Positions 10,019 to 45,706 are shown, counted from the first letter of the stretch. The stretch: DNA of 64,000 nucleotides from an uncultured Pseudomonadota bacterium (GCA_949288265.1 CASEJM010000015.1:2052-66051); one strand, 5' to 3'. Notes: generated by a model from the letters alone, not told the origin. Program-made: numbers and translations.

Positions 10019-10514
10019 ACTTTCCTAAATCAATCGTTAATTCACGCCCTGAACTTTCAACAGGACATATTAACATTCCCGTACTTTCTGCCTGATCCGC
10101 ATCACGTGTTGCATTACGCCATGTAAATTTTATTTCTTCTGGTGCATACAAACACGCAATATGCAGTTCACCATCATGCTTATCATTTGGTCCCAACCAA
10201 ACGCGTACACCATACCCAAGCCCATAACAAGGGAAACCATCTAAATAATACAATACCAACCCTCGACCAACCAAACTAGATGAAGTTATAAAATTTCCGC
10301 GATATTCCGAATAACGCAAACCCGTCAACCCTTCCCAATCTGTACTAGTAGAAAAAATGCTGACGCGCGCTTGCTGATTAGGCTTTGACGGATTATTCCC
10401 CCCCTGTTCTCTTACCTGAGGATGACTTGGTTTTGAATCCTCCGCAATTGCCGGATTTAAAAACAAACTAATCGCGAATAACGTATACAGAAAAACTTTC
10501 ATCTTTTCCCCCAT
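9984..10514 (-). CDS. Secreted hypothetical protein (signal peptide), last gene of the pilin-like operon
   Basis: N-terminal signal MKVFLYTLFAISLFLNPAIA. No known domain. Its start overlaps the stop of the 10514..11020 gene. Confidence 0.45.
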   Translation of the reverse strand: MGEKMKVFLYTLFAISLFLNPAIAEDSKPSHPQVREQGGNNPSKPNQQARVSIFSTSTDWEGLTGLRYSEYRGNFITSSSLVGRGLVLYYLDGFPCYGLGYGVRVWLGPNDKHDGELHIACLYAPEEIKFTWRNATRDADQAESTGMLICPVESSGRELTIDLGKCEKGPDWSEYK

Positions 10515-11020
10515 TATTCTTTACTATCTAATTCAACGGCTATTTTTTCTACGTTTGATACGGGTACAGATAATTTATGAGAAAACTTAACTTCACTGCC
10601 TGCATCTAATAATGTCGCAGAAGGTAAAAATTTTTGTCGTGCTATAACGTTTCCATTAACGTCATATGAAACGATGACCAAACCTGGAGCCCCATAAATC
10701 TGTTCAGACCGATTTACAACCCGCCCCGATACAACAAATTTAGTAATACCACTTTCATCTGTATCGGTTTTTACGTCCATAATTTCCGCAACAATAGGCT
10801 TTTCTTGAATCTCTTTTACCTTATGTTGATACAAAACTGCAACCGCAAATATTAATGCCGCCAATAAAGCACATAATGCAGCAATGAATACTAATACCGA
10901 ATTACGTCGCTGTGGTCGCTGAACAACCCACGTATTACCACAAATCGCACATTTAACGGGTCCAGAAGGAACGACGTCTAAAGAATACTCTGTTTTACAA
11001 AAATTACATACTGTTTTCAT
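10514..11020 (-). CDS. Zinc-ribbon (MJ0042-type C-x2-C...C-x2-C) membrane protein with a DUF3426-like C-terminal domain
   Basis: N-terminal CNFCKTEY...CAICGN zinc-ribbon, then a single TM helix (VLVFIAALCALLAALIFAVAVL), then a ~100-aa beta-rich domain. Confidence 0.5.
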   Translation of the reverse strand: MKTVCNFCKTEYSLDVVPSGPVKCAICGNTWVVQRPQRRNSVLVFIAALCALLAALIFAVAVLYQHKVKEIQEKPIVAEIMDVKTDTDESGITKFVVSGRVVNRSEQIYGAPGLVIVSYDVNGNVIARQKFLPSATLLDAGSEVKFSHKLSVPVSNVEKIAVELDSKE

Positions 11021-11040
11021 AATATGATTTATACCATAAA

Positions 11041-12399
11041 TTATTCTAAATTCAACTGATGATATTTTAACCCCACTGCATTTTGAATTTCATTTATTGC
11101 GTTCATATAATCTGATGCTGTTGCGTTCTTATTAGTAGCTACCGCATTAAATATACGCCAAGTATCTGTATCCGTATCATCTTCTTCATACACAACCGTC
11201 TGCGCCATACGACTTAATTCTTGCAAAGAAACATCCATAAAATTTGCAACACCATAAGAAGCATCCCAATAATAATCAGGGTTAACAGAATCTTCTATTC
11301 TATCATGCACTTCTAACCTTGGTGTAATAGATCCAGCAAAACCAACTGTTACAAACATTGCATCAATGTTTCCACCTGTCATATCCAAAGATTTATTAAT
11401 ATTTAATACAACGGGACCATCGTCTGAATATGTCGACAATCCCCCCAAGGTCATATTAGAAACCCATAAATCCCCCGTAGAAAAACTTGTAAATTTTCCA
11501 GTATCCGCCATGGAAAATGTCTTAGCCACTTCCATTGTTCTGGAATCTGATGACAATGTGCCAGAAACAGTTGCATTTTGTACTTCTAGTATCTTATCTA
11601 ATGTAGTTCTATTTTGAAAAATTGTATCAACTGTTACGGCAACCCCCAGGGTAAGACTTTCTGTAAATTCAACCGCGTCGGCATTAAAAAAAGTAGAATT
11701 ACTTATATCATGTCCACCTAAATTTAAATCAGACAGCATTGTCGCATCTGAAGCATTATCCGTTGGTACTCTGTACAAATACAATGCATTATCACGATTA
11801 ACTGCGGTTGTCTCGACCAACCCATCTGAAACGTTTAAGCCTAAATCTATCGTGTCTGCTCGCCATGCACCAAACGTACCATAGGCACGATTTCCTTCAA
11901 TAAAGCCCATAGAATCACCACCCATAGCAACTATTTCACGGGTACGCATTGGCGTTATCTCATCTGAAGAAAAAACTATTACCCCTTGTAAAGTTGCCCG
12001 ACCATCTATATCACTAGACTTTAAAACACGTAATTGATAACTGCCGGTATCATCTGATGCTAAATCTGGGTTTAAACCGTATTCCGCTAAATCCGCAATA
12101 TTTACTCTTATAATATTTCGTCCAACTGTATTTAAAAACTCTTCACGATGATCTACTATATAACGTTCCAAAGCAGTTTGAATACTTTCCATCTGTTCTG
12201 CAATAGCAACGTTTTCTGCCCGCTGAACAACGCTTTGCTGATACTTAAAAATAAATGGCATAACTATTGCAGCCAGCGCAACGGTCATCAACAATTCAAC
12301 TAACATTGACCCCTTTTGAGAGTCTTTTCTTAATCTTAGACCAAAATTTTTACTTATGTAACTCATCATTGAATTTCCTTTGGCATGGCAAATTGCCAA
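11041..12399 (-). CDS. Large type IV prepilin-like protein (class III signal: KG|SMLVE, Glu at +5), 452 aa in the ORF track
   Basis: Basic leader ending in Gly, then a hydrophobic N-terminal helix SMLVELLMTVALAAIVMPFIF. The probable start is the ATG at 12366, which overlaps the stop of the upstream gene (TGATG-type coupling). The C-terminal 400 aa have no recognised domain. Confidence 0.55.
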   Translation of the reverse strand: MAICHAKGNSMMSYISKNFGLRLRKDSQKGSMLVELLMTVALAAIVMPFIFKYQQSVVQRAENVAIAEQMESIQTALERYIVDHREEFLNTVGRNIIRVNIADLAEYGLNPDLASDDTGSYQLRVLKSSDIDGRATLQGVIVFSSDEITPMRTREIVAMGGDSMGFIEGNRAYGTFGAWRADTIDLGLNVSDGLVETTAVNRDNALYLYRVPTDNASDATMLSDLNLGGHDISNSTFFNADAVEFTESLTLGVAVTVDTIFQNRTTLDKILEVQNATVSGTLSSDSRTMEVAKTFSMADTGKFTSFSTGDLWVSNMTLGGLSTYSDDGPVVLNINKSLDMTGGNIDAMFVTVGFAGSITPRLEVHDRIEDSVNPDYYWDASYGVANFMDVSLQELSRMAQTVVYEEDDTDTDTWRIFNAVATNKNATASDYMNAINEIQNAVGLKYHQLNLE

Positions 12400-22969: not shown

Positions 22970-25192
22970 ATGGTTGAAAAATTCAAGATTTTATCCGCAG
23001 GTGGTAAGTCTAAAGGCTTGAATATATTCAAGTCCTCTGCTTATAAAGAACATCAGCGAACCCCGATGGCTTCGCTGTTTTGGTCTTTACGCTGGTCTGT
23101 CGGTATATGGCTGGTTTGTGCACTGGCATTTGGACTATCTTTCTGGATTGAACACATATGGCGTTATGGTTGGTCACCTGCAACTGCACATTGGTCTGCT
23201 TTATATTTCAATAATATGTTAACAAGCGGTGGAATATCTATATTGGCAGAAGTACCTGCATGGTTCATAAGAACGCTGTTACGTACGGATATTGCTTGTA
23301 TGGTACCGTTGCTACCCATAATCGCTTATTTCTTTATGTCAGATGCGACACTAGTCAAAGAATTTAACCCATATGGTAATGATAAATTTGACGAGAAATC
23401 TTCTAATAAAGCCACGAAAGAAGATATAGAAAAAATGGGACTTTTAAAGGGTTTTATGATGGTATTAGGGTATTTTAAGAAAAAACCCTTAATGATGAAC
23501 GAATGTTTATCCGCATTATGTGTTGCGCCTCCGGGGACAGGTAAAACATATGGCGTTGTTGTTCCTACCATATTTGAATGCAACGAAGTATCTATGATTA
23601 TTAACGATCCGAAACCAGAATTGTACCAATGTACGTCTGCATACCGTTCTACGATTGGGCCTGTGTTCATTATGAACTGGGCGGGTCAAGACGACCCAGA
23701 ACGTGGAATTTACTATCCGTCTTGGAATCCGTTATCACCGGAACACGTGCCATTTAACCAAGAACAACGTGATTTGTATGTTGATTCAATATGCAACGTT
23801 TTGGTAGCAGACAAAGCGTCTTCAACCGCGGATCCACACTGGACTATTTCTGGGCGTGCCGGATTATCTGGATTAATTCAATTCATGATTTCTAAAGTAG
23901 AACGCGCGAAAGCCGATGATTATTTTTATTCGCGTATAACTTCCGGTACGTTTGATGAAGAAGACGCGGCAGTTCTTGGTGATTATTACTTATCAATGAT
24001 GAACGATCCTAACGCTTACGCGGCATACGCTTTGCTACAAAAAGGCGAATTGAATGCTATGAATTATGTTCACATTGGTACGTGGGATAAAATACCCGAT
24101 TCTTGGAAAGGTAAAGAAGCGTCTTTGTCAATGATTTTAGACTGGATAAATTCCAGTCAAATTGGTCTTGCACAACAACAAGAAGAACGCCGCCGTCAGG
24201 GCGATCAAATGGTAATGATGGAAGACCCTATGCACGACTTATTTATGAATGCCGTTGATGAAGCGCGTAGGTATTCATACGCACATAGGGCTGTTTTAGA
24301 ATTAACGCAATTAGCAAATACACCTGACAAAGAACGCGGGTCCATAATATCTACTATAATGGCGGGACTATCAATATTCCGTAACGCAGCTGTACGCAAT
24401 CGCACCAGCCATTCAGATTTCCACTTTTCTGATTTACGCGGACTACGCGATCCACGCGACGGTAAGATAAAGCCCGTTACAGTATATCTATCAATTAACA
24501 TGGTTGATGCAGAAGCTTTAAACCCAATTACAGGCATATTCATTGAATTAATGACTAACTTCTTATTGGCAAATAAACCAGAGCAAGAAAATAACGGTGA
24601 AAGACTGGGGCCATATCCTGTATTATTCATATTAGACGAAATGCCAAAGATGCAAAAATTACAGGCAGTTATACAAGGTCCAGATCTTGGGCGCGGTCAG
24701 AAAGTTTCATATTTAATCATCGGTCAAGACTTACACCAAATTCAAGAAAAATATGGGGCAGATGCGGCAGCTACTATTATATCCACTACGGCGGCAAAGG
24801 TTGTTTTACGACAAAACGACCCAGATACAGCCCAACGTTTCTCTGGCATGATGGGGTATAAAATTAAAATAAAGACAGTAAAAGGTCCTGACGGCAAAGA
24901 AACAGAAGAGAAAAGCCAAGAACCATTATATTCCCCGATGGACATTATGAAGCTTGATGATAAAAAACAATTGGTTATATTCCAAGGGTGGTATCATCGC
25001 CCTATAGAAGCCGACAAACAAATGTCATTTGCGGACCCACGTTTATCCAGTTATATGGCAATGGGGGCATGCAGTCCGCTGCCAGAATTCTTAATACCAG
25101 CGCATCATGTGGCCCTTGGTTATTCTGGTAATCCACGAATGTATATTCCGCAAACAAAAGAAATAAAGGAACTTGAACCAATAAAAAAATAA
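22970..25192 (+). CDS. virD4: Type IV secretion coupling protein, VirD4/TraG family (T4CP)
   Basis: N-terminal TM segments. Walker A-like region CVAPPGTGKTYGVVVPT followed by NDPKPELY...AYRSTIGPVFIMN...WNPL, which parallels VirD4 (APTRSGKGVG...NDIKGELY...GYR...FNPL). Walker B-like VLFILDEMPKM. No other T4SS genes in the window. Confidence 0.7.
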   Translation: MVEKFKILSAGGKSKGLNIFKSSAYKEHQRTPMASLFWSLRWSVGIWLVCALAFGLSFWIEHIWRYGWSPATAHWSALYFNNMLTSGGISILAEVPAWFIRTLLRTDIACMVPLLPIIAYFFMSDATLVKEFNPYGNDKFDEKSSNKATKEDIEKMGLLKGFMMVLGYFKKKPLMMNECLSALCVAPPGTGKTYGVVVPTIFECNEVSMIINDPKPELYQCTSAYRSTIGPVFIMNWAGQDDPERGIYYPSWNPLSPEHVPFNQEQRDLYVDSICNVLVADKASSTADPHWTISGRAGLSGLIQFMISKVERAKADDYFYSRITSGTFDEEDAAVLGDYYLSMMNDPNAYAAYALLQKGELNAMNYVHIGTWDKIPDSWKGKEASLSMILDWINSSQIGLAQQQEERRRQGDQMVMMEDPMHDLFMNAVDEARRYSYAHRAVLELTQLANTPDKERGSIISTIMAGLSIFRNAAVRNRTSHSDFHFSDLRGLRDPRDGKIKPVTVYLSINMVDAEALNPITGIFIELMTNFLLANKPEQENNGERLGPYPVLFILDEMPKMQKLQAVIQGPDLGRGQKVSYLIIGQDLHQIQEKYGADAAATIISTTAAKVVLRQNDPDTAQRFSGMMGYKIKIKTVKGPDGKETEEKSQEPLYSPMDIMKLDDKKQLVIFQGWYHRPIEADKQMSFADPRLSSYMAMGACSPLPEFLIPAHHVALGYSGNPRMYIPQTKEIKELEPIKK

Positions 25193-28991: not shown

Positions 28992-31145
28992 TTATGCTGC
29001 TTTACCTGAAACAAACCAATAACCATAGTTAGACCCAGATACACCGGCATATCTACAAACGAATACGAAACTAGTTTCTGTCTGGTTGTTATATCCTGTA
29101 TCGTAACCACTTGCCGATGTCTTGCCGTAAAAACCCTGAACGATAGTATAATGGCTATCAGACATAGGAATCGGTAAACTTACAGTATTTTCTGGAGATG
29201 TTGGGGGCATAATATATCCACCCTGCTCAACCCACCCAGACTTATACATACGATACCAAGTGTAACTATTATCTTCTGTGGGTAATTGAGAAGCAACCAC
29301 ATAATCGCAATTAGTTGATAAGTTAGATAAATCAGTTTTTAAAAAACTGGTCGCAGAGATAACGCCATCTGATATATTAATGTTCTCACCGGCCGTAAGT
29401 TTATCCTGTTTATTTTCAACCGCGTCTTGAATAGTTTTTAAGTCAATTACCCGAAAAGCATTTGCCTGATTTATGCTGTTTATGCGAGTTCCATCATTAC
29501 CTATATCGGCAATTTTTGCATAACTTCTATTAGTTCCATCTGGAATATATTTTATAAAATTGCTTTCTTCATCATACTTATAAATTCCCACATCAACAGC
29601 GACCAAACCGGAAGCATTTGCCCATAATTCCTGTCTGGAAAAATCAGGGAAAGTATAAACTTTCACTTCATTTTGAACATTCATAGAGTTTTTCAAACTT
29701 CCATCCGAGTTTATGCCATTAGGTGCCAAAACTTGTAATCCAGGCAGTGTGAATGCAGTTATACCAATAAATCCGACGCAGTTGAAAATCTGGTCTATAC
29801 TTATTACTGTGCCAGCAGAATTCATAGAAACTATCGCAATAGGTAATGATATATTATATACATTCCAGGTGCTGCCAGCATTATTTGTATATTTTATCTG
29901 ATTGTTTGCAGTATCATACCATATATGAGTATTACCTGTTAAACCTGTTGGGACTGTATTACCTGACCATTCTCTTTCAAAAGGAAAATAATCATCAGAA
30001 GATGGGTTATAAACTAAAAGTCCTTGTGATTCACCAAAATTTTGAACAGTTAATGTTTTATCGCTTTGTAAAACTGTTTCTGTAAAGACCCCAACGCCAT
30101 TAGGAACATAAACAACGCTTCCAGCTTTTAATGTAAGGACTCCGTTTTCTAGCGTAATTTTTACCTTTTGCGGTTTTTGTACTATACAATTAGTGATTTT
30201 ATTACTTAATTTTTCAATATTTGAAACGCTTAATGGCAAAGCATTTGTACCGGCACCAGACAAACTTTCATCGTGACTTACAGCCAACAAACCTTCTGCC
30301 CCCGAAGAAGCCATTGCCGAAGTAATAATGTTACCATCTATACCAACTTGTAAAAACTTTCCTGCGTTTTCTGAACCTTGCTGAATACTTATTTTACCAG
30401 ATATCTGGTTTGCATAAGCATCATACGTAGCCACTTTAGTTGATGTAATACCAGAATTAGTTGCTTGCAATTGTACATTTGTTAGTAGATTCTGTTTTTC
30501 CGCCAATGCACTAGAAACTTCGCTTTTGGTTGCATACAAAGACATATCATGAGTATGATTTGCTAATGCAAAATTACTTGTATCTGGTATTTCGTCTTTA
30601 GTTGCGAAATCACTTGTGTCTGGAATTTCATCTTTAGTTACAAAGTCGCTTATGTCCGGGAACTCATCTTTTTTTACAAAATTACTAACGTCTGGTATTT
30701 CATCTTTTCTTGCCAGTTCGTCAAGACCACCCAAATTATCTATTTGCTCCTGTATAGAATCTACGAATTGCACAGCATTTTCAATATTTGCTATATCCCC
30801 ATCTAATTCATATATATCTTTCATAAACTCTAACATAAAATTAAAGTCAGCATTTAAACTTTCTGTTTGTATAGGTAAAGTCGGTTGATAATCTATGACA
30901 CGTGATAAATCTATTTTACGCCATATACGAATAGTCGCGCCTGATACAGGTGCTGTATTTAAAACAATTTTACCACCTGGATACATACCATCACTTTGTA
31001 AATTTTTAGAAAAAACTACGGTATATTCACTAATTTTTAAGATCTCAGAATTTATAGAAACTTTTACATCGGCAGCTTTAAAAAAGGGAAATGCAAAATC
31101 AAACTCTGTTGTTGAACCGTCACCGGTATATTGTATCAGATACAT
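28992..31145 (-). CDS. Phage tail-fibre protein with a T7 gp17-like N-terminal tail-attachment domain, 12-aa tandem repeats and a C-terminal receptor-binding region
   Basis: N-terminus MYLIQYTGDGSTTEFDFAFPFF...VKV...ATIRIWRK...LNADFNFM parallels T7 gp17 (DGSNRDFNIPFEYL...VVV...IELRR...DGSILRAYDLN). Repeats KDE(I/F)PD(V/I/T)S(N/D)F x4. The long, low-Cys, Gly/Ser/Thr/Asn-rich C-terminus is typical of fibres. Confidence 0.7.
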   Translation of the reverse strand: MYLIQYTGDGSTTEFDFAFPFFKAADVKVSINSEILKISEYTVVFSKNLQSDGMYPGGKIVLNTAPVSGATIRIWRKIDLSRVIDYQPTLPIQTESLNADFNFMLEFMKDIYELDGDIANIENAVQFVDSIQEQIDNLGGLDELARKDEIPDVSNFVKKDEFPDISDFVTKDEIPDTSDFATKDEIPDTSNFALANHTHDMSLYATKSEVSSALAEKQNLLTNVQLQATNSGITSTKVATYDAYANQISGKISIQQGSENAGKFLQVGIDGNIITSAMASSGAEGLLAVSHDESLSGAGTNALPLSVSNIEKLSNKITNCIVQKPQKVKITLENGVLTLKAGSVVYVPNGVGVFTETVLQSDKTLTVQNFGESQGLLVYNPSSDDYFPFEREWSGNTVPTGLTGNTHIWYDTANNQIKYTNNAGSTWNVYNISLPIAIVSMNSAGTVISIDQIFNCVGFIGITAFTLPGLQVLAPNGINSDGSLKNSMNVQNEVKVYTFPDFSRQELWANASGLVAVDVGIYKYDEESNFIKYIPDGTNRSYAKIADIGNDGTRINSINQANAFRVIDLKTIQDAVENKQDKLTAGENINISDGVISATSFLKTDLSNLSTNCDYVVASQLPTEDNSYTWYRMYKSGWVEQGGYIMPPTSPENTVSLPIPMSDSHYTIVQGFYGKTSASGYDTGYNNQTETSFVFVCRYAGVSGSNYGYWFVSGKAA
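30571..30714. repeat. 4 x 36-bp imperfect tandem repeat within the tail-fibre gene (encodes the KDEIPDxSxF repeats)
   Basis: Units at 30571-30606, 30607-30642, 30643-30678 and 30679-30714, about 75-85% identical to each other. Confidence 0.7.
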
Positions 31146-38544: not shown

Positions 38545-40550
38545 AAAAGTTTAACCCCATTTTAATAGCTTGTCTTATACCTGCTGCAAGTACAGCAGCC
38601 ACTCTTGACATAGAAACGCCAAAAACGATTACGTCAGAAAAAATCGTATATAACGTAAAGACAGAAACCATACAAACTTCTGGTGAAACAGAAATTGTAA
38701 ATCAGACAGGTCAACGTATGACTTTGACGGATTCATATCTATCCCAGAATGGCAAATCTTTGTCTGGTGATGATATAAAGTTATGGTTGGGTGATCATGT
38801 GTATGTAGAATCTGACAACGTCGTACACGAAGGTGATAAAACCATAGCTTATAAAGCGATGTTTACAGCCTGTGATGACTGTGACGCATATGGGGATGCG
38901 TGGGAAATTCGCGCTTCTAAAATCATCCATAACATGGATGAACATATGTTATTATTTTTTAACCCAGTATTATGGACTTATAACGTACCTGTATTTTGGT
39001 TGCCTTTTTATGAAATGCCAGATCCAAGCGTTAAATATAAAACAGGTTTTTTAATGCCGGACTTTGGTTCAACTAATAAAATGGGTACTCAAATAAACGT
39101 GCCATTCTACGTCAATTTTTCTGACACTCACGATTTAACGTTTACAACATCGTATTTGACCCAGGAAAATCCATTATTCCAAATTGAACATAGACTAAAC
39201 TTAGACCACTCTGAATATCGCACACACGGTGCATTTACACACAACCGTTTGGGTGAAAACCGCTGGTATATATTTAATAACGACGTAATAGAGTTAGGTG
39301 AATATACACGAGCTACAGTTTTCTTAGAAAGAGCATCTGATAAAACGTTTATGCAGAAATACGGTTTTTATGATGATCAGCCATATTTGGATTCTGGGGC
39401 TAAAATAGAAGTTTTCGGACAGTCAAGTTACGTAGTTGCTGACGCACATATATTCCAAGAATTACGTCGTTCTACTGGTATATACGCATCTCCGTCGGGT
39501 AATATTTTACCAAACATACGGGGAACTTATCAAACAGCACCAATATTTAAAGAAACATATCTTGTATTTGATGCCGATATGTTAGGTATATCTGGTGACG
39601 GAACATCTTCACAGCGCTTAATCGGCGACGCAAGAATTGTATCCCCATGGACTTTGTGGGGTGGAAATAGAATAACCGCAAGTTTATCGGCTCGGTACGA
39701 TATATATAACTTTAATAATACTGAAATGGTTGATACGTCAGAATTTTCTGGTTTCAAAGATCGTTTCTTACCAAGTGGATACGTAGAATGGGGATTGCCT
39801 CTTTTTAAGACAACCACTAATTGGACCCAGATTATAGAACCTAAAGCGCGAATGACCATTATGCGAAAGACGGATGAGGAGCAATTTGCGTTAAACAATG
39901 ATTCTTCTGGTGCTTTTTTATCAGATACAACACTATTTTCTGACAACCGCTTTGCGGGTTTAGACCTTTGGGAAAACGGAACTTATGCAGATTATGGTAT
40001 AAGGTATTCTGCGTTCAATACCAAAGGAAAAATGTTCGAGTTATTTTTAGGGCAAACTTATGACTTTTATGATAGAGCAGACACAAACCCTAACAGCGGC
40101 TTTAATAACGGCGCATCAGATTACGTTGGAAGAATAAGTTATAATAATACAAAATGGTTAAGTATAACTTCTCGTTTTAGACTTAACGAAGAAAATCTTT
40201 CTTTACGCCACTTAGAAACATCTGCATATTTATGGAAATCGAAAAATTTCTTAAACATAGGGCATATATGGTCTCAAAATTTAGATGAAAACACTACCGG
40301 TGAAGATATAAATGAAATAAAAGCAGGTATAGGATTACAAATTACAGAACGTTGGTCCATACGTTTTAATGCAGTTTATAACGCAACGTTTGATAGGTTT
40401 CAACGTCACACTGGTGGTATATTCTATACCCACCCTTGTTATTATCTATCTTTACAATACCGTCTTGATAATACGAATAAGTATGATTACGTTGGTAACA
40501 CAACATTCCAATTTAAATTTGGAATGACTATCAATGGTCAACGGTATTAA
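38541..40550 (+). CDS. lptD: LPS-assembly outer-membrane protein LptD (OstA/Imp)
   Basis: Signal peptide, an OstA-like N-terminal domain and a large C-terminal beta-barrel ending with an aromatic residue (...NGQRY). ATGA overlap with lptF/G. Confidence 0.8.
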   Translation: MKKFNPILIACLIPAASTAATLDIETPKTITSEKIVYNVKTETIQTSGETEIVNQTGQRMTLTDSYLSQNGKSLSGDDIKLWLGDHVYVESDNVVHEGDKTIAYKAMFTACDDCDAYGDAWEIRASKIIHNMDEHMLLFFNPVLWTYNVPVFWLPFYEMPDPSVKYKTGFLMPDFGSTNKMGTQINVPFYVNFSDTHDLTFTTSYLTQENPLFQIEHRLNLDHSEYRTHGAFTHNRLGENRWYIFNNDVIELGEYTRATVFLERASDKTFMQKYGFYDDQPYLDSGAKIEVFGQSSYVVADAHIFQELRRSTGIYASPSGNILPNIRGTYQTAPIFKETYLVFDADMLGISGDGTSSQRLIGDARIVSPWTLWGGNRITASLSARYDIYNFNNTEMVDTSEFSGFKDRFLPSGYVEWGLPLFKTTTNWTQIIEPKARMTIMRKTDEEQFALNNDSSGAFLSDTTLFSDNRFAGLDLWENGTYADYGIRYSAFNTKGKMFELFLGQTYDFYDRADTNPNSGFNNGASDYVGRISYNNTKWLSITSRFRLNEENLSLRHLETSAYLWKSKNFLNIGHIWSQNLDENTTGEDINEIKAGIGLQITERWSIRFNAVYNATFDRFQRHTGGIFYTHPCYYLSLQYRLDNTNKYDYVGNTTFQFKFGMTINGQRY

Positions 40551-41389
40551 TGAAAAGGAAAAACAATATGAAAAAAATATTCATTACAATGTTTTTGCTT
40601 ACTTTTGTACTTCCTGCTGATGCCGCATCAGTTATAGCATCTATAAACGGGACTCCGATAACAGATGCCGATATAACAGCGCGCACAACGTTAATGGCTA
40701 AACAAGGTAAAGCGTCAACGGATAATCGCCGTATTGCTTTACAGAACATAATTGATGACAGCGTAAAATTATCTTACGCACAAAATTTTAATGCCGTACC
40801 AGACGACGAAACTGTTGAAAAAGAACTAAAGAAAATGAATCTTGGCGAATTATCTGAAACAGAAAAGGCTATGGCCTTATCTGCAATTAAAGCAGAAATT
40901 GCTTGGCAGATAATAGTTGCCAGAACGATTCTTCCAACAGTTGATATTACAGATGCAGAAATTGCAAAAGAACGGGCTGAAATTGCAAAAGAACAGGGAC
41001 TACCAATAGAAACGACTTTAATCCGTCTTATTGACATTCCCGTAGAAATAGCAACAAGCTTAAAAAAACCAAATAGTTGTGATGAAGCTATGCAAATTGC
41101 CAAAGATTTGGGGGGTGCCCCACAAAAATTCACAGCATTACAATATGAATTGGCTCCGGATATTCGTGAACGTATTGCAAATCTACCGCTTCTTACTTGG
41201 TCACCTGTTGTAAACCGGTCTGTTTTACTTGTTTGTGAAAACAAAAAGACATCAGAATACGGAAAGCTAGACGACATGATAAAACAAAATGCGCTGTTTA
41301 AACAAGCAATGTTCATAGCAGACCAACAATTAAAACAACTACGTAGGAAGGCCGTTGTTGTAATAAACGATGATAGATATAAATTATGA
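40550..41389 (+). CDS. surA: SurA-like periplasmic chaperone (SurA N-terminal domain only, no obvious parvulin domain)
   Basis: Signal peptide. SurA_N-like SVIASINGTPITDADI. Position downstream of lptD matches the lptD-surA synteny. Its start overlaps the lptD stop (TAATG). Confidence 0.55.
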   Translation: MKRKNNMKKIFITMFLLTFVLPADAASVIASINGTPITDADITARTTLMAKQGKASTDNRRIALQNIIDDSVKLSYAQNFNAVPDDETVEKELKKMNLGELSETEKAMALSAIKAEIAWQIIVARTILPTVDITDAEIAKERAEIAKEQGLPIETTLIRLIDIPVEIATSLKKPNSCDEAMQIAKDLGGAPQKFTALQYELAPDIRERIANLPLLTWSPVVNRSVLLVCENKKTSEYGKLDDMIKQNALFKQAMFIADQQLKQLRRKAVVVINDDRYKL

Positions 41390-42492
41390 AACCTATATTA
41401 TTTAATTTAACAGACGCTGAACTAACGGATTTCATAACGAAACTTGACCAACCTAAGTTTCGAGCAAAGCAAATTCGCGAATGGTTAAATCGCGGTGCGC
41501 CAGATTTTAAATCGATGAAAAATCTTCCGGAAAAACTTCGTACAGATTTAGATGCTTCTGCAAGAACTTTGCCTGTTCAAATAATAAAAAAATTAGAATC
41601 ATCAGACGGTCAGACAACAAAATTTTTATTAGAATTAAACGATTGTGAACAAATTGAATGTGTATTAATGCGTACAAGCTATGGTAATAGCGTCTGCGTT
41701 AGCTCTCAAGCAGGATGCGCGATGGGTTGTAAATTCTGTGCCAGTACATTGTTAGGTCTAAAAAGAAATTTAACTGTAAACGAAATTTATTCTCAAATTT
41801 TGGTTGCTCAATGGGAATTACGAAATGACAAGCTTTCGGACAACCATATACGACCTAATGGTGACGCAAATAACGGTGATGTTTCTCACATTGTTATAAT
41901 GGGGACTGGTGAACCTTTGCAAAACCTAGAAAACGTTATCGGTTTTATAGAACGAGCCAATTCGGAAATGGGTATAGGATGGCGTAAAATAACCGTTTCT
42001 ACGTGCGGAATTGTTCCGGGAATAAAGGAATTGACAAAATGGGGGCGACCGATAAACCTGGCAATATCGTTACACGCTCCGACGAACGAATTACGCAGTC
42101 ATATTATGCCTATAAACAATAAATATAAATTAGACGAAGTACTAGATGCAGCATTTGAATTTTCTGCCCTACACAATCGTCAATTAATGATTGAATACAT
42201 ATTACTTGGCAAAAAGAATTCTTCTGGCGAAACAGAACTGTTTAATTGTGATGCAGAATATGCAAAAAAACTGTCCGATCTATTAAAGGGTAAGAATTGT
42301 ATGGTGAACTTAATCCCCTGGAACGCGGTTGATGAACGTGATTTTGCTTCACCTTCTGGAAATGCCGTTCACAATTTTCAAGACATTCTTATCAAAAACG
42401 GGATACACACCAGAATAAGACGCGAACGTGGGCAGGATATAGGGAGTGCATGCGGTCAATTACGTTTAAATAATGCAAAAGGAATAAAATGA
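41386..42492 (+). CDS. rlmN: 23S rRNA/tRNA m2A methyltransferase RlmN (radical SAM)
   Basis: CxxxCxxC radical-SAM cluster (CAMGCKFCAS) and the C-terminal motif GSACGQL. Confidence 0.9.
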   Translation: MKPILFNLTDAELTDFITKLDQPKFRAKQIREWLNRGAPDFKSMKNLPEKLRTDLDASARTLPVQIIKKLESSDGQTTKFLLELNDCEQIECVLMRTSYGNSVCVSSQAGCAMGCKFCASTLLGLKRNLTVNEIYSQILVAQWELRNDKLSDNHIRPNGDANNGDVSHIVIMGTGEPLQNLENVIGFIERANSEMGIGWRKITVSTCGIVPGIKELTKWGRPINLAISLHAPTNELRSHIMPINNKYKLDEVLDAAFEFSALHNRQLMIEYILLGKKNSSGETELFNCDAEYAKKLSDLLKGKNCMVNLIPWNAVDERDFASPSGNAVHNFQDILIKNGIHTRIRRERGQDIGSACGQLRLNNAKGIK

Positions 42493-43232
42493 GACTACGT
42501 TACATAACCTGTTCAGACCCAAGAGAAACCGTTGCCGTAGAAGCAGTGTTACGATTATCTCAAACTGCACCGATTGTAGAAATAGCCGTACAGGCACACC
42601 CATCTAAAATGTCGGACGGTATGCCACGTAACCAATGGTTTAATAGACTTTTAAAAGAAAGTTTATATATGCCAAAGGCCCCAAATCTGGCAGTTCATGT
42701 AAACATGGAATGGTGTGATAATTTCTGCCAAGGAATCTTGGCACCAGAGATAAAAAATTGGTTATCATTAACTCGTACAGACGGTACCCCAGTAATATGT
42801 CGCTGGCAAATAAATGTTTATGGCAGTAAAACTAAAATTTTTAATCCAGAAGAAATCGCTAAATTATTAAAATCATTTTCTGATAACGAGTTTATTTTTC
42901 AATATGGACCATCAGAATGCTATAACATAAAGCGTTTAAATGAAACGGAATCAAATTTCTCGTTATTATATGATGTATCTTGCGGTACGGGAAAAACAAA
43001 CAAAAATTGGGCTGCGCCTTTATATAAAAATCACCCCCAGGGTTATGCAGGCGGTTTGTCACCAGAAAACGTTACGGAAAACCTTGATAAAATCAATCAC
43101 GTTACCAAAGATAGAACAGACGTATGGATTGACGCAGAAAGTAAACTAAAAAATCCCGAAACAAAAAAATTTGATATAAATAGGGCTAAACAATACATAA
43201 ACGCCGCCTTAAAATGGCAAAATTCTAAATAA
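42489..43232 (+). CDS. Phosphoribosylanthranilate isomerase (TrpF)-like TIM-barrel protein, paralog 1
   Basis: N-terminus M(K/R)LRYITCS, cf. TrpF MxVKICGIT. C-terminus LLYDVSCGTGKTNKNW...YAGGLSPENV...VWIDAESKLK...KFDINRAKQYI parallels TrpF LLDTKTPEYGGSGKTFDW...LSGGLNPENV...AVDVSSGVE...KDxxKIxxFI. ATGA overlap with the rlmN stop. Confidence 0.55.
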   Translation: MRLRYITCSDPRETVAVEAVLRLSQTAPIVEIAVQAHPSKMSDGMPRNQWFNRLLKESLYMPKAPNLAVHVNMEWCDNFCQGILAPEIKNWLSLTRTDGTPVICRWQINVYGSKTKIFNPEEIAKLLKSFSDNEFIFQYGPSECYNIKRLNETESNFSLLYDVSCGTGKTNKNWAAPLYKNHPQGYAGGLSPENVTENLDKINHVTKDRTDVWIDAESKLKNPETKKFDINRAKQYINAALKWQNSK

Positions 43233-43246
43233 TAAAAGGGTAATAA

Positions 43247-43999
43247 ATGAAATTACGTTATATAACTTGTTCTGACATAAGAGAAAATATTCCAGAATAC
43301 AAAGTTATTGACTTACTAAAAACATCGGAAAAAGTGGAACTTGGCATACAAGCCCACAGCCCAAATATGAATAAAAACATGCCCAGAAATATTTGGTTAA
43401 ATAAATTACTGAATACATCAGATATAAATACTTTTCCATTAAACATTGCCATTCACGTAAATTACGATTGGTGTTCTGATTTCTGTATGGGGAATATCCC
43501 AGAAGAATTAAAGTATTTATTAAACTTTAGACATACTTCAACTGGTAAACCAATAATAAAACGTTGGCAATTAAACATAGGTGACGGAACTATAATACCA
43601 AACGCCAAAACTGTATCTAATATAATAAAATCTTACCCCTATCAAGAATTTATATTTCCTTACAACGAAAAACCAGATTTACGAAATTTCATACATGAAC
43701 TTAACGACACCGGGGTAAGTTTTTCTTTACTATTTGATTCTTCTTATGGTGCAGGCATCGCCCCTTCATCTTGGAATGCTCCAATATATAAAAATCACCC
43801 CCAGGGTTATGCAGGCGGTTTATCGCCAGAAAACGTTACGGAAAACCTTGATAAAATCAATCGCGTTACCAAAGATAGAACAGACGTATGGATTGACGCA
43901 GAGGGACGGTTGATGAAACCAGGAACCAGAATTTTTGATATAGATCGCGCAAAAGAATATATAAAAAAAGCCTTAAATTGGGAACAAAAGCAAAAATAA
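43247..43999 (+). CDS. TrpF/PRAI-like TIM-barrel protein, paralog 2
   Basis: Same motifs as paralog 1. About 45% amino-acid identity overall, but a 119-nt tract of about 97% identity (43785-43903 vs 43021-43139). Confidence 0.55.
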   Translation: MKLRYITCSDIRENIPEYKVIDLLKTSEKVELGIQAHSPNMNKNMPRNIWLNKLLNTSDINTFPLNIAIHVNYDWCSDFCMGNIPEELKYLLNFRHTSTGKPIIKRWQLNIGDGTIIPNAKTVSNIIKSYPYQEFIFPYNEKPDLRNFIHELNDTGVSFSLLFDSSYGAGIAPSSWNAPIYKNHPQGYAGGLSPENVTENLDKINRVTKDRTDVWIDAEGRLMKPGTRIFDIDRAKEYIKKALNWEQKQK

Positions 44000-44022
44000 A
44001 AACCCGCATAAGCGGGTTTTTT

Positions 44023-44670
44023 TTACTTATTAGGAATAATTTTGATTTCAACACGGCGGTTTTGCTGACGTCCTTCAGCAGTAGAATTAGAAGCAATCGG
44101 ATTTGAAGAACCTAAGCCCATAATTTCAAACCGAGATGACTTTACACCCTGCCCCTGTAAATATGCCGCGACTGCATTAGCACGTTGCTGAGACAATGTT
44201 TGATTATATTCTGCAGTACCAGTACTATCTGTATAACCTAAAACCATTACCGTAGAATTATCATATTTATTTAATACCTTGGCCACAGAATTTAGCGTAG
44301 CATAGAAACCCGCGTTTATATCAGAAGAATCTGTCTTAAATGTTATATTTCCAGGCATTATTAAACGTATGCTATCACCATCACGAACAACGCTTACACC
44401 TGTTGAAGCCAATTCTTGGCGCAATTCTGCTTCTTGTACGTCCAGATAATACCCCACGCCTGTACCAACAGCCGCCCCAGCAAGCCCACCAACAAGTGCC
44501 CCTGCACCACTATTTTTTGCAACCAAAGCACCCGTTGCAGCACCTGTTGCAGCACCAATAGCAGTACCCCATACAGCTTTTGAAGTTTGCGCCTCACCAG
44601 TATATGGATTAACAGTTGCACAGGCACTTAACATAGAAATAATCGCGATAAAAGCAAAAATTTTTTTCAT
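44023..44670 (-). CDS. OmpA-family lipoprotein with a glycine-zipper region (YiaD-like)
   Basis: Lipobox MLSAC. Gly-zipper GTAIGAATGAATGALVAKNSGAGALVGGLAGAAVG. C-terminal OmpA_C motif (GYTDSTG...NRRVEIKI). Confidence 0.7.
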   Translation of the reverse strand: MKKIFAFIAIISMLSACATVNPYTGEAQTSKAVWGTAIGAATGAATGALVAKNSGAGALVGGLAGAAVGTGVGYYLDVQEAELRQELASTGVSVVRDGDSIRLIMPGNITFKTDSSDINAGFYATLNSVAKVLNKYDNSTVMVLGYTDSTGTAEYNQTLSQQRANAVAAYLQGQGVKSSRFEIMGLGSSNPIASNSTAEGRQQNRRVEIKIIPNK

Positions 44671-44829
44671 ATAAATACTCCTTTCTTACAGTAAGCTCAT
44701 TATAAACACAATAAAAACGAAGCGCAACAAAAGACAACGAAGTTATTATCTATGATCATTGACAACATATATAAATTTGTACTAACATAAACGCATAAAT
44801 CTTAAAGATAAAATTTCTTAAATTTTAAT

Positions 44830-45594
44830 TTGAAAAGGCAAAACATGAAATTACGTTATATAACTTGTTCCGGTGCAAATGAAAAAACCCCGTATAAAGA
44901 TTTAATAGAATTAAGCAATTTATCAAAACTAGTAGAAATTGGAATTGCCGCCAATTCTAACATAATGAAAAAAACGACCCCACAATATGATTGGTTTGAA
45001 GAACTATTAAATACCGAAGAAGCTTCCAATATGAATTTATCAATGCACATCAACAACGATTGGTGCGTTGATTTATGCAACGGTAAAATGGTACCTGAAA
45101 TAGAAAAATTGTTAAATATTTGTAATAAAAAAAGAAATCCTGCCATACGACGCTGGCAATTAAATATCAGCAATCATATGAATCTACAAGACATAAGTCA
45201 TATACAATCATTAATAAAATCTTACCCAGAACAAGAATTTATATTTTCTTTTAATAATGGTCCTATTGTCATGTCATTTTTAAAGAAACTATCTAAAACA
45301 AATACCCGTTTTTCCTTACTATATGATTCATCTTATGGCAGCGGTCGCAATCCTCAAAATTGGGAAGGTCCCTATTTCCCTGGTCGCGATCATGGTTATT
45401 CTGGTGGTCTATGCGGTGAGAATGTATATAAAAATCTAGAAAACATATCTTACGTAGTACCGACTTTATATAATACTTGGATTGACGCAGAATATAAATT
45501 AAAGACTCCCAACACAACAAACTTTGACTTATTGCTTGCAAAAGATTATGTAGAAAAAGCCCTTGCATGGCAAAACAAATATATTTCGCATTAA
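44830..45594 (+). CDS. TrpF/PRAI-like TIM-barrel protein, paralog 3 (most divergent)
   Basis: MKLRYITCS N-terminus after a 5-aa extension. Conserved SLLYDSSYGSG...YSGGLCGENV...TWIDAEYKLK. AAAGG Shine-Dalgarno before the ATG at 44830. Confidence 0.5.
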   Translation: MKRQNMKLRYITCSGANEKTPYKDLIELSNLSKLVEIGIAANSNIMKKTTPQYDWFEELLNTEEASNMNLSMHINNDWCVDLCNGKMVPEIEKLLNICNKKRNPAIRRWQLNISNHMNLQDISHIQSLIKSYPEQEFIFSFNNGPIVMSFLKKLSKTNTRFSLLYDSSYGSGRNPQNWEGPYFPGRDHGYSGGLCGENVYKNLENISYVVPTLYNTWIDAEYKLKTPNTTNFDLLLAKDYVEKALAWQNKYISH

Positions 45595-45600
45595 ATTAAA

Positions 45601-45627
45601 AACCGCCTAAAAAGGCGGTTCTCTTTT
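45601..45627. terminator. Bidirectional terminator (AACCGCC-taaaaa-GGCGGTT + CTCTTTT) between paralog 3 and tRNA-Val
   Basis: Read directly from the sequence. Confidence 0.55.
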
Positions 45628-45629
45628 AC

Positions 45630-45706
45630 TGGTGGATGTTGAGGGACTCAAACCCCCGACCCTCTCGGTGTAAACGAGATGCTCTAATCAACTGAGCTAA
45701 ACATCC
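45630..45706 (-). tRNA. tRNA-Val (anticodon UAC), CCA encoded
   Basis: Reverse complement is GGATGTTTAGCTCAGTTGATTAGAGCATCTCGTTTACACCGAGAGGGTCGGGGGTTTGAGTCCCTCAACATCCACCA. It folds into a 7-bp acceptor stem, a D-arm (GCTC/GAGC), an anticodon stem TCTCG/CGAGA with loop TTTACAC, and a T-arm GGGGG/CCCTC. Confidence 0.85.

What the first reader, a model, noticed from the sequence alone, without database searches (positions are those of the whole stretch)
41386..45706. Three tandem, divergent TrpF (phosphoribosylanthranilate isomerase)-like TIM-barrel paralogs coupled to rlmN, flanking an OmpA lipoprotein and ending at tRNA-Val
Each roughly 250-aa protein shares with TrpF the N-terminal M-x-[LV]-[RK]-[IY]-[IC]-[GT]-[IC] strand with a Cys, the GSGKT(F/N)xW phosphate-binding segment, GGL(N/S)PENV, and the terminal [VI]D[VA]SS/ESxxE...KDxxK segment. 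Outside these blocks they are highly divergent from TrpF and from each other, and no other trp genes are nearby. Paralog 1 starts on the rlmN stop codon (ATGA), implying co-translation with an rRNA/tRNA methyltransferase. The array ends at a tRNA gene, a common integration hotspot. This could be a lineage-specific expansion of an isomerase acting on a phosphoribosyl-amine-like substrate other than PRA (for example in nucleotide or cofactor salvage or RNA-modification precursor metabolism), or a catalytically dead scaffold family.
Basis: partly seen in the sequence, partly recalled or inferred. Interest (0 to 1): 0.7.

Follow-up and report, generated by a model that had tools for sequence, protein, structure and literature searches.

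The report
Unnamed TrpF-related enzyme family, three copies
Three neighbouring genes encode members of a large, unnamed enzyme family distantly related to the tryptophan-pathway enzyme TrpF; the family is found mainly in bacteriophages and in tiny-genome gut bacteria that cannot make tryptophan, so it must do another, still unknown, job.

Summary
Three paralogous ORFs (42489-43232, 43247-43999, 44845-45594; 247, 250 and 249 aa; 39-52% identical) follow rlmN. The first overlaps the rlmN stop codon (ATGA). A YiaD/OmpA lipoprotein gene lies between copies 2 and 3, and tRNA-Val(TAC) follows copy 3.

The proteins belong to an unannotated family of at least 3,400 clusters at 50% identity. Most members whose context I checked sit in phages, including megaphages, or in prophage-like regions. 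One monophyletic branch sits directly after rlmN across uncultured gut Alphaproteobacteria related to Ca. Enterousia (Rs-D84), which reportedly lack amino-acid synthesis.

All three copies keep every near-invariant family residue and show dN/dS well below 1. They evolve faster than their neighbours, vary in copy number, show gene conversion, and one copy was exchanged between species.

Verdict: active TrpF-derived enzymes with a role outside tryptophan synthesis; the substrate is unknown.

The parts
41386..42492 (+). rlmN (dual-specificity radical-SAM RNA methyltransferase). It is the upstream gene of the operon, and its stop codon overlaps the start of paralog 1.
   Evidence: TIGR00048 E 6.7e-101, 337.7 bits against a cutoff of 290; RlmN_N and Radical_SAM Pfam domains; ATGA overlap read.
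42489..43232 (+). Paralog 1 (247 aa), a TrpF-related TIM-barrel enzyme of the 'Par1-type' subclade. It is translationally coupled to rlmN.
   Evidence: 309.6 bits to the family HMM; weak PRAI hit, E 0.12, residues 144-200; position in the tree.
42466..43245 (.). Gene-sized tract that is 95-100% identical to another species (L004, L173), while the flanks are about 78% and 68% identical. This points to recent exchange of paralog 1 between species.
   Evidence: Sliding identity profiles; dS 0.04 for paralog 1 against more than 1 for its neighbours; the mosaic is reproduced in independent assemblies L173 and L174.
43247..43999 (+). Paralog 2 (250 aa) of the 'Par2-type' subclade, starting 14 nt after paralog 1. 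It was the query for the structure model.
   Evidence: 307.9 bits; AF2 model with pLDDT 93.8 and pTM 0.91, showing eight β/α units.
43007..43138 (+). 132-nt gene-conversion tract in paralog 1. It is 94% identical to 43771-43902 in paralog 2 and encodes the β7 GGLSPENV region.
   Evidence: the repeat finder family D1, set against overall amino-acid identity of 52% between the two genes.
43771..43902 (+). Partner copy of the gene-conversion tract, in paralog 2.
43998..44021 (.). Bidirectional intrinsic-terminator-like hairpin between the converging paralog 2 and yiaD genes.
   Evidence: 10-bp stem with 5 GC pairs and T-runs on both strands.
44023..44670 (-). YiaD-family glycine-zipper/OmpA lipoprotein gene lying between paralogs 2 and 3. 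It is an unrelated neighbour, not part of the family.
   Evidence: NF053611 E 1.3e-78; OmpA Pfam domain E 5.1e-26.
44759..44788 (+). Sigma-70-like promoter match (TTGACA, 18 nt, TAACAT) upstream of paralog 3.
   Evidence: This is a consensus match only.
44845..45594 (+). Paralog 3 (249 aa from ATG 44845; the mechanical ORF starts at TTG 44830). It is apparently monocistronic and is the fastest-evolving copy. This subclade is seen only in the four closest genomes.
   Evidence: 288.5 bits; dN 0.28-0.41 against orthologues; tree.
45601..45620 (+). Terminator-like hairpin after paralog 3.
45630..45706 (-). tRNA-Val(TAC), a conserved syntenic neighbour of ybaB-pnp.
   Evidence: ARAGORN; Rfam 66 bits; present at the same place in 12 of 12 relatives.

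Best explanation
The three genes are paralogous, catalytically competent members of an undescribed (β/α)8-barrel enzyme family. The family is distantly related to phosphoribosylanthranilate isomerase (TrpF) but is not TrpF.

Shown:
- The fold is a TIM barrel whose nearest solved structures are TrpFs.
- The C-terminal third keeps the TrpF layout: an Asp at the end of β6 (D164 in paralog 2, equivalent to T. maritima TrpF Asp126), a Gly-x-Gly loop after β6, the β7 'AGGL.P.N' motif, and an Asp in β8. This is the standard site for binding a phosphate ester.
- The rest of the active face carries a residue set of its own that is conserved across the whole family: E31, W50, H70, R106, Q108 and N110.
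- The family is very large, has no curated annotation, and is carried mainly by phages and prophage-like elements.
- One monophyletic branch is fixed in the reduced genomes of gut Alphaproteobacteria related to Ca. Enterousia (Rs-D84). There it sits directly after rlmN, usually overlapping its stop codon by 4 nt, in one to three tandem copies.

Inferred:
- Each protein binds a small phosphorylated ligand through the β6-β8 loops. The ligand is most likely a 5-phosphoribosyl-type or nucleotide-like compound carrying an aromatic or base moiety.
- It performs acid/base chemistry on that ligand, such as an isomerisation of the Amadori or aldose-ketose kind, or related sugar-phosphate chemistry. D164 would act as the acid. 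The base would not be the TrpF cysteine; candidates are the acidic residues after β1, or E31 and H70.
- The role is in nucleotide, ribosyl or RNA-linked salvage or modification, which both phages and metabolite-scavenging bacteria need. It is not tryptophan synthesis.
- The paralogs probably differ in substrate or partner specificity.

The substrate itself is unknown.
For: Fold and nearest family:
- AF2 models reach pLDDT 93.8 and 93.6 with eight β/α units.
- 43 of 136 family members hit Pfam PRAI at E <= 0.1 (best 2.7e-7), and no other Pfam family is hit by more than 2 members. One member passes the PRAI gathering score. A few carry a precomputed PF00697 match and a JGI 'PRAI' name.
- hhalign against a TrpF alignment gives E 4.2e-5 and probability 70% over β6-β8. 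PDB profile searches always put TrpF 4aaj first, aligning D164 with the TrpF 'LLD' Asp.

Conservation:
- Sixteen of the near-invariant family positions are present in all three window copies.
- dN/dS is 0.08-0.30.

Distribution:
- 3,405 clusters at 50% identity match at E <= 1e-3.
- Members sit on phage contigs, in megaphages, in 116 IMG/VR contigs found with a single peptide pattern, and in prophage-like or mobile regions.
- 141 stretches in genome contigs encode a relative; the 77 loci kept come almost entirely from uncultured Alphaproteobacteria, proteobacteria, Ca. Enterousia or 'Rickettsiales' MAGs, apart from three generically labelled and two binned as Muribaculaceae.
- lptD-surA-rlmN-family synteny holds in about 65 of 77 loci. 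Of 69 rlmN/family pairs, 32 overlap by exactly 4 nt and 62 lie within -37 to +16 nt.

Not tryptophan synthesis:
- No trp genes are found in the window or in 77 loci.
- Rs-D84 genomes are reported to lack amino-acid and nucleotide biosynthesis (PMC12306168).
Against: - No substrate, partner or pathway could be identified.
- Phage neighbourhoods are heterogeneous and have no conserved partner gene.
- The TrpF general-base Cys has no demonstrable equivalent, so an isomerase mechanism is an analogy, not a result.
- I had no model coordinates, so active-site geometry was not examined.
- Assigning the window itself to Rs-D84 rests on similarity to named MAGs, not on a taxonomic classification.
Confidence: 0.6

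Rival explanations
1. Conflict-related enzyme of phage origin. Phage copies would neutralise or rebuild a nucleotide-derived molecule during infection, for example an immune signal, a depleted cofactor, or a nucleic-acid modification precursor. The partner-dependent Rs-D84 bacteria would have domesticated the same activity for their own interactions with other cells or with their phages. Diversifying pressure would then explain the copy-number changes and allele swapping.
For: - The family is mainly phage-borne and sits in early or accessory regions next to DNA methylases, HNH and TnpB elements, NadA, nucleoside 2-deoxyribosyltransferase-like and SLOG domains, a PAPS-reductase-like gene and ParB.
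- In the window lineage the paralogs have 2-4 times the dN of their neighbours.
- Copy number varies from 1 to 3.
- There is a gene-conversion tract, and a gene-sized inter-species exchange of paralog 1.
- Paralog 3 is the most divergent stretch of the whole block (51-67% nucleotide identity).
Against: - The PHROG scan was empty and no curated defence family matched; PADLOC was not scanned.
- There is no conserved partner gene.
- In Rs-D84 the gene sits in a housekeeping operon that is conserved across the order and is under purifying selection. That looks more like core metabolism than an arms-race gene.
- Neighbourhood themes are weak, and several counts come from a few related phages.
Confidence: 0.2
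2. RNA-linked function. The enzyme would work with RlmN, or on tRNA or rRNA more generally. It might make or remove a ribosyl or phosphate-bearing modification, repair damaged tRNA, or dispose of a by-product of radical-SAM RNA methylation.
For: - Translational coupling to rlmN holds across an entire order.
- 19 of 60 viral loci carry tRNA or tmRNA genes within 8 kb. The gene is embedded in tRNA arrays in L078 and L106, and a tRNA lies beside it in L081 and L089.
- Immediate phage neighbours include TyrRS, Thg1, RNA ligase, RlaP and HAD_SAK_2 RNA-repair domains.
Against: - In reduced genomes, gene order is conserved for many unrelated genes.
- Non-Rs-D84 bacterial members are not next to rlmN.
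- In phages the tRNA and RNA-repair neighbours are a minority, and I did not compute a background rate.
- No RNA-binding domain or fusion was found.
- tRNA-Val in the window is simply syntenic.
Confidence: 0.12
3. Non-orthologous replacement of a missing central-carbon TIM-barrel enzyme. It would be a sugar-phosphate isomerase, epimerase or aldolase-type step of the pentose-phosphate or glycolytic routes that are reported as incomplete in Rs-D84. In phages it would act as an auxiliary metabolic gene.
For: - Rs-D84 genomes are reported to lack transaldolase, fructose-bisphosphate aldolase and glucose-6-phosphate isomerase (PMC12306168).
- The phosphate-binding barrel has ribulose-phosphate epimerase, TrpA and PdxJ among its next-best structural matches.
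- Phages are known to carry pentose-phosphate auxiliary genes (my own knowledge, not checked here).
Against: - There is no invariant Lys, so it is not a class I aldolase or transaldolase. There is no His-rich metal site, so it is not a class II aldolase or an RPE-type enzyme.
- Up to three diverged copies and fast evolution are unusual for a central-metabolism enzyme.
- No co-location with other sugar-phosphate genes was seen.
Confidence: 0.07
4. Ordinary TrpF paralogs that serve tryptophan biosynthesis.
For: - TrpF is the closest known family.
- The β6 Asp and the phosphate site are conserved.
- A few family members are auto-annotated as PRAI.
Against: - All three fail the PF00697 gathering score and the NCBIfam equivalog cutoffs by a wide margin (12.6 against 22.7 bits; 14.6 against 215 bits).
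- The N-terminal two thirds cannot be aligned, and the catalytic Cys position is not conserved in the family.
- No trp genes are present in about 1.2 Mb of related sequence.
- The lineage is reported to lack amino-acid biosynthesis.
- The bulk of the family is in phages.
Confidence: 0.03
5. Catalytically dead scaffold or structural protein.
For: None directly. The only point in its favour is that no activity is known.
Against: - About 18 polar or glycine positions at the C-terminal face of the barrel are near-invariant across more than 130 representatives at 23-50% identity, and all are kept in the three copies.
- dN/dS is well below 1.
Confidence: 0.03

Closest known systems
Phosphoribosylanthranilate isomerase, TrpF (Pfam PF00697 PRAI; EC 5.3.1.24)
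   Same: - The same β6 Asp is present ('LLD' in TrpF, 'L[YF]D' here).
- A Gly-rich loop follows β6.
- The β7 motif is 'AGGL.P(E/D)N'.
- There is an Asp in β8, and the C-terminal helix is similar.
- PRAI is the only Pfam family repeatedly hit by family members.
   Different: - Sequence identity is 10-15%.
- Only β6-β8 can be aligned.
- The proteins are about 45 residues longer than TrpF, with two helices after β3 and a long β6 loop.
- The general-base Cys7 is not conserved; it is Thr or Ser by strand register.
- A new invariant set has appeared: E31, W50, H70, R106, Q108 and N110.
- There is no trp context.
- The family is mainly phage-borne and falls below the curated thresholds.
HisA / PriA (ProFAR isomerases, which catalyse the same Amadori chemistry)
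   Same: - They are phosphate-binding barrels that catalyse an Amadori rearrangement with two acidic residues instead of Cys plus Asp.
- The family here also has conserved acidic residues just after β1 ('GADD' in phage members, 'SDxRE' in the window proteins) in addition to the β6 Asp.
   Different: - There are no Pfam His_biosynth hits.
- There is no two-fold half-barrel repeat and no second phosphate site.
- The mechanistic parallel is an inference only.
Other ribulose-phosphate-binding barrels (ribulose-5-phosphate 3-epimerase, TrpA, TrpC, PdxJ, KGPDC/HPS)
   Different: - Members show no sequence-profile hits to these families.
- Their defining catalytic residues are absent: the RPE metal ligands, the TrpA Glu/Asp pair, the TrpC Lys/Glu pair and the OMPDC D-x-K-x-x-D motif.

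Membership tests
TrpF / PRAI (PF00697; NCBIfam NF002298) | Score at or above the curated family thresholds | tested here: not met
   Paralog 1 scores 12.6 bits against the 22.7-bit Pfam gathering score (E 0.12). Paralogs 2 and 3 give no hit. NF002298 gives 14.6 bits against a cutoff of 215.
TrpF / PRAI (PF00697; NCBIfam NF002298) | (β/α)8 barrel closest in structure to solved TrpFs | tested here: met
   [not shown]
TrpF / PRAI (PF00697; NCBIfam NF002298) | General-acid Asp at the C-terminal end of β6 (T. maritima Asp126) | tested here: met
   D164 (paralog 2 numbering) aligns with the TrpF 'LLD' Asp in the HMMER and hhalign alignments. It is invariant in the three copies and conserved in at least 90% of the family.
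TrpF / PRAI (PF00697; NCBIfam NF002298) | General-base Cys at the C-terminal end of β1 (T. maritima Cys7, motif K-I-C-G) | tested here: inconclusive
   The N-terminal region cannot be aligned to TrpF. C8 is conserved in at least 90% of the Rs-D84 branch but is Val, Met or Phe elsewhere in the family. By strand register and the 'T-G' versus 'C-G' motif, the equivalent position is Ser9 here and Thr in phage members (inference).
TrpF / PRAI (PF00697; NCBIfam NF002298) | Phosphate-binding loops (GxG after β6, GG at β7, β8 loop) | tested here: met
   G168-x-G170, G190-G191 and D217-A-E align with TrpF G-S-G, GGL and D-V-S-S.
TrpF / PRAI (PF00697; NCBIfam NF002298) | Pathway context: other trp genes in the genome or neighbourhood | tested here: not met
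   tblastn with E. coli TrpA-E finds nothing in the window or in 77 related loci (best E 0.36). Rs-D84 genomes are reported to lack amino-acid biosynthesis (PMC12306168). The whole genome of this organism was not available.
TrpF / PRAI (PF00697; NCBIfam NF002298) | PRA-to-CdRP isomerase activity | not testable with these tools
   This needs trpF complementation or an enzyme assay.
Unnamed TrpF-related family (defined here by alignments A3 and A7) | Full-length match to the family profile | tested here: met
   The three copies score 309.6, 307.9 and 288.5 bits. The family has 3,405 representative clusters at E <= 1e-3.
Unnamed TrpF-related family (defined here by alignments A3 and A7) | Near-invariant residues E31, W50, H70, R106, Q108, N110, D164, S166, G168, G170, G187, Y188, G190, G191, N196 and D217 | tested here: met
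   All are identical in the three window copies and are present in at least 90% of 136 members.
Rs-D84 rlmN-coupled branch of that family | Gene directly downstream of rlmN within the lptD-surA-rlmN block | tested here: met
   Paralog 1 overlaps the rlmN stop codon. The same arrangement is seen in 62 of 69 loci. The branch is monophyletic in an NJ tree.

The most novel reading that the evidence does not exclude
The family catalyses a chemistry on a phosphoribosyl or nucleotide-derived molecule that has not been described before. Phages would use it during infection, for counter-defence or for nucleic-acid or tRNA modification. Partner-dependent, tiny-genome gut Alphaproteobacteria would have captured it and made it indispensable, wiring it to rlmN, duplicating it into specialised paralogs and exchanging alleles between species. 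Under this reading it is a new enzyme class shared by viruses and parasitic bacteria.
Probability: 0.25. Interest if true: 0.8.

Novelty: new variant of a known kind. Interest (0 to 1): 0.5.

Why it matters
A family with thousands of sequence clusters is carried by phages from 41 kb to 735 kb and is fixed in an entire order of reduced-genome gut bacteria, yet it has no Pfam, PHROG or NCBIfam model. The occasional automatic name, 'phosphoribosylanthranilate isomerase', is almost certainly wrong. Recognising it as a distinct TrpF-derived family prevents false calls of tryptophan biosynthesis in phage and MAG annotation.

It also gives a clean case of TIM-barrel divergence: the phosphate-binding third is retained while the catalytic two thirds are rebuilt. 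Finally, it points to an unknown metabolic need shared by viruses and partner-dependent bacteria. The proteins are small, soluble and confidently modelled, so the question can be tested directly by ligand screening and structure determination.

Tried and rejected
- **Curated libraries.** Pfam, NCBIfam and PHROG scans of the three proteins and of phage members gave nothing significant apart from weak PRAI hits. PADLOC was not run.
- **Sequence searches of the PDB.** Four profile searches gave only borderline TrpF hits, with E 0.03-3.
- **Structure searches.** Foldseek against the PDB was weak, with best E 3.6e-4. The AFDB50 library was unavailable.
- **Phage neighbourhoods.** BLAST clustering of about 2,000 ORFs from 82 viral loci found no partner family in more than 8 loci. 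Pfam scans of the ±1 and ±2 neighbours found no recurrent partner. The NadA and Dcm neighbours come from one group of related phages. The radical-SAM neighbours in phages are not RlmN-like.
- **Domain fusions.** Longer family members carry no recognisable extra domain.
- **Cysteine metal or Fe-S site (C8, C76, C80).** I considered this and rejected it, because these Cys residues are not conserved outside the Rs-D84 branch.
- **tRNA-Val as an integration site.** Rejected, because the tRNA is syntenic in all relatives.
- **hhalign options.** Global-mode hhalign, used to force an N-terminal alignment with TrpF, gave a degenerate result. Single-sequence hhalign with E. coli TrpF was uninformative.
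- **Literature.** Searches for a TrpF-like phage family found nothing relevant.

Full report
**1. The observation**

The region contains, in order:
- a SurA-like gene (40550-41389);
- rlmN (41386-42492; TIGR00048 E 6.7e-101);
- paralog 1 (42489-43232, 247 aa);
- paralog 2 (43247-43999, 250 aa);
- a YiaD-family glycine-zipper/OmpA lipoprotein gene on the minus strand (44023-44670; NF053611 E 1.3e-78);
- paralog 3 (ATG 44845 to 45594, 249 aa);
- tRNA-Val(TAC) on the minus strand (45630-45706).

The rlmN stop and the paralog 1 start share ATGA at 42489-42492.

The three proteins align over their whole length with 52% and 39% identity to paralog 1. Each scores 288-310 bits against a family HMM, and the window holds no fourth copy.

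A bidirectional terminator-like hairpin (43998-44021) separates paralog 2 from yiaD. Paralog 3 has its own promoter-like match (44759-44788) and its own terminator-like hairpin (45601-45620). There are therefore probably two transcription units: (…)rlmN-paralog 1-paralog 2, and paralog 3 alone.

Its quoted motifs are only approximate, and 'highly divergent from each other' overstates 39-52% identity.

**2. Fold and relation to TrpF**

An AlphaFold2 model of paralog 2, built on a 32-sequence alignment, is confident (pLDDT 93.8, pTM 0.91) and shows eight β/α units.

At sequence level the three window proteins fail every curated TrpF threshold. Across the family, however, 43 of 136 members hit Pfam PRAI at E <= 0.1 (best 2.7e-7), and no other Pfam family is hit by more than two members. 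One member passes the PRAI gathering score. Some carry a precomputed PF00697 hit and a JGI 'PRAI' label.

Profile searches of the PDB always place Pyrococcus TrpF (4aaj) first, at E 0.03-0.1. For a profile-profile test I rebuilt five diverse TrpF sequences from PDB alignments and from E. coli trpC. hhalign gives E 4.2e-5 and probability 70%, but only over about 61 columns covering β6-β8. The Viterbi core is the 13-residue 'AGGLsPdN' β7 motif.

In these alignments:
- D164 (paralog 2 numbering) matches the TrpF 'LLD' Asp, which is the general acid Asp126 of the T. maritima enzyme (established knowledge);
- G168-x-G170 matches G-S-G;
- G190-G191-L matches GGL;
- D217 matches the Asp of 'VDVSS'.

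The N-terminal two thirds, including the region of TrpF's general base Cys7, cannot be aligned.

Cys8 of the window proteins is conserved in at least 90% of the Rs-D84 branch, but it is Val, Met or Phe in the rest of the family, whose β1 reads 'VTVTGADD'. By strand register in the two models and the 'T-G' versus 'C-G' motif, the residue at the Cys7 position is Ser9 here and Thr in phage members. This last point is inference.

In summary, the family is TrpF-related. It keeps the phosphate site and the β6 Asp, but it is not a TrpF.

**3. The family and where it lives**

A word-indexed search with paralog 2 found 493 relatives, none with a Pfam domain or an informative name.

A full HMM search of 1.84 billion cluster representatives found 3,405 hits at E <= 1e-3 and 2,045 at E <= 1e-10.

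Distant members sit in the following contexts:
- phage contigs of 52-120 kb or more, alongside a tail-tube protein, a clamp loader, RNA ligase, DUF5131 and many small ORFs;
- megaphages of 635-735 kb, and Microcystis phage Mwe-JY13;
- 116 IMG/VR contigs found with a single peptide pattern;
- a prophage-like region of a Spirosoma chromosome, and next to an integrase in a Patescibacteria contig;
- ordinary bacterial contexts, for a few intermediate sequences.

No PHROG or NCBIfam model matches, and literature searches found no description.

Near-invariant positions over 136 members at 23-50% identity are E31, W50, H70, R106, Q108, N110, I136, L162, D164, S166, G168, G170, G187, Y188, G190, G191, N196 and D217. 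From the model's strand positions, most lie at the C-terminal ends of the strands. All of those cited as candidate catalytic or binding residues are present in all three window copies. This argues against a dead scaffold.

**4. The bacterial branch**

A scan of GTDB species representatives returned 141 stretches that encode a relative. The 77 loci kept come almost entirely from uncultured gut or rumen Alphaproteobacteria or proteobacteria, 'Candidatus Enterousia' or 'Rickettsiales' MAGs, including a circular 958-kb genome. Three loci carry generic labels and two sit in bins labelled Muribaculaceae.

The order lptD-surA-like-rlmN-family gene holds in about 65 of 77 loci. Of 69 loci with both genes, 32 have exactly the 4-nt overlap and 62 lie within -37 to +16 nt.

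Copy number per locus is 1 (62 loci), 2 (10 loci) or 3 (5 loci).

An NJ tree makes the branch monophyletic against phage-type sequences. It resolves Par1-type and Par2-type subclades, each spread across the order, which implies an old duplication followed by differential loss. A long-branched Par3-type is found only in the window and its three closest relatives.

tRNA-Val(TAC) is next to ybaB-pnp in 12 of 12 relatives, whatever the copy number. It is a syntenic neighbour, not a sign of integration.

Rs-D84/Enterousia genomes are reported to be under 1 Mb and to lack pathways for amino acids, nucleotides and lipids. They are also reported to lack glucokinase, G6P isomerase, FBP aldolase and transaldolase, and to be probably partner-dependent (PMC12306168). 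tblastn with E. coli TrpA-E finds nothing in the window or in the 77 loci. A role in tryptophan synthesis is therefore very unlikely.

**5. Evolutionary behaviour**

Against the three closest genomes, dN/dS is 0.08-0.30 for all paralogs. This indicates purifying selection, although dS is saturated. Their dN is 2-4 times that of rlmN, lptD, yiaD or pnp, and paralog 3 is the fastest.

A 132-nt tract (43007-43138 against 43771-43902) is 94% identical between paralogs 1 and 2, which are otherwise 52% identical at the protein level. This indicates gene conversion over the β7 region.

Most striking, paralog 1 (42466-43245) is 95-100% identical to the orthologue in another species (L004). The flanking rlmN and paralog 2 are only about 78% and 68% identical, and dS is 0.04 against more than 1. 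Two independent assemblies of that other species reproduce the mosaic. The paralog 1 cluster at 90% identity is seen on about 20 contigs, whereas paralog 2 has no close relatives. This looks like a recent gene-sized exchange between species. Read-level confirmation is still needed.

**6. Function**

No conserved partner emerged from the phage neighbourhoods.

Weak themes are:
- DNA-modification and nucleotide genes: Dcm, N6/N4 methylases, NadA, nucleoside 2-deoxyribosyltransferase-like and SLOG domains, dCMP deaminase, PfkB and a PAPS-reductase-like gene;
- RNA and tRNA genes: TyrRS, Thg1, RNA ligase, RlaP and HAD_SAK_2. In addition, 19 of 60 viral loci carry tRNA or tmRNA genes within 8 kb, and the gene sits inside tRNA arrays in L078 and L106.

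Several of these counts come from related phages, and I did not compute a background rate.

My best-supported reading is an active enzyme that anchors a phosphate ester in the TrpF-like β6-β8 site. The ligand is most likely a phosphoribosyl or nucleotide-like compound, given the conserved aromatic residues. The enzyme would carry out acid/base chemistry with D164 plus a non-cysteine base, serving salvage or modification needs common to phages and scavenging bacteria. The fold, the conservation and the distribution are shown. The ligand class and the reaction type are inferred.

The rival explanations, in order of weight, are a conflict or counter-defence enzyme, an RNA-linked partner of RlmN, a replacement for a missing central-carbon enzyme, ordinary TrpF, and a dead scaffold.

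**7. Novelty and score**

This is a new, unannotated family within a known fold and superfamily, with a changed catalytic half and an unusual distribution across phages and parasitic bacteria. I class it as a new variant of a known kind.

It is of moderate interest (0.5). It is a real and sizeable annotation gap with a directly testable question, but there is no mechanism yet, and phage genomes hold many families of unknown function.

Noticed in passing
window 42466-43245, compared with L004 7243-7983 and L173/L174 5001-5762: Paralog 1 is 95-100% identical at the DNA level between two species whose flanking genes are only about 68-78% identical. The break-points sit sharply at the gene ends. 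This suggests recent gene-sized homologous exchange between species, although an assembly artefact has not been fully excluded.
   Followed up: partly
window 43007-43138 and 43771-43902: A 132-nt tract is 94% identical between paralogs 1 and 2, which are otherwise about 52% identical at the protein level. It indicates gene conversion over the β7 phosphate-binding motif.
   Followed up: partly
window 28995-31145 (-): A 717-aa chromosomal ORF whose N-terminus matches the phage T7 tail-fibre N-terminal domain (PF03906, E 1.3e-6). It could be a prophage remnant or a tail-fibre-like adhesin in a reduced genome.
   Followed up: no
window 22970-25189 (+): A type IV secretion coupling protein (VirD4/TraG-like; T4SS-DNA_transf E 7e-53). 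It may be relevant to the proposed partner-dependent lifestyle of these bacteria.
   Followed up: no
window 1884-3914 (-), 3703-5754 (+), 5795-8902 (-): Three large ORFs (677, 684 and 1036 aa) have no Pfam match. The stretch 4001-6000 has unusually low GC (28-32%, against about 38% elsewhere). The first two ORFs overlap on opposite strands, so at least one may be spurious.
   Followed up: no
L127 12109-12469; L120 2566-2639: Viral contigs that carry the family also encode suppressor-type tRNAs, called tRNA-Pyl(CTA) twice and tRNA-SeC(TCA). This hints at stop-codon recoding in those phages.
   Followed up: no
L094 6499-6842; L095 3932-4276; L098 5095-5350: tmRNA genes are encoded on viral contigs within a few kb of the family gene.
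   Followed up: no
L078 325-7737; L106 2856-15119: In two phage contigs the family gene is embedded in arrays of 9 and 15 tRNA genes. In L106 the nearest tRNAs lie about 11 nt away on either side.
   Followed up: partly
L138, L139, L143 and L147, around 7900-11400: A group of related phages carries the module tail fibre, family gene, C5 cytosine DNA methylase, quinolinate-synthase (NadA)-like gene (NadA E 7.9e-95). A NadA homologue beside a DNA methylase is unusual.
   Followed up: partly
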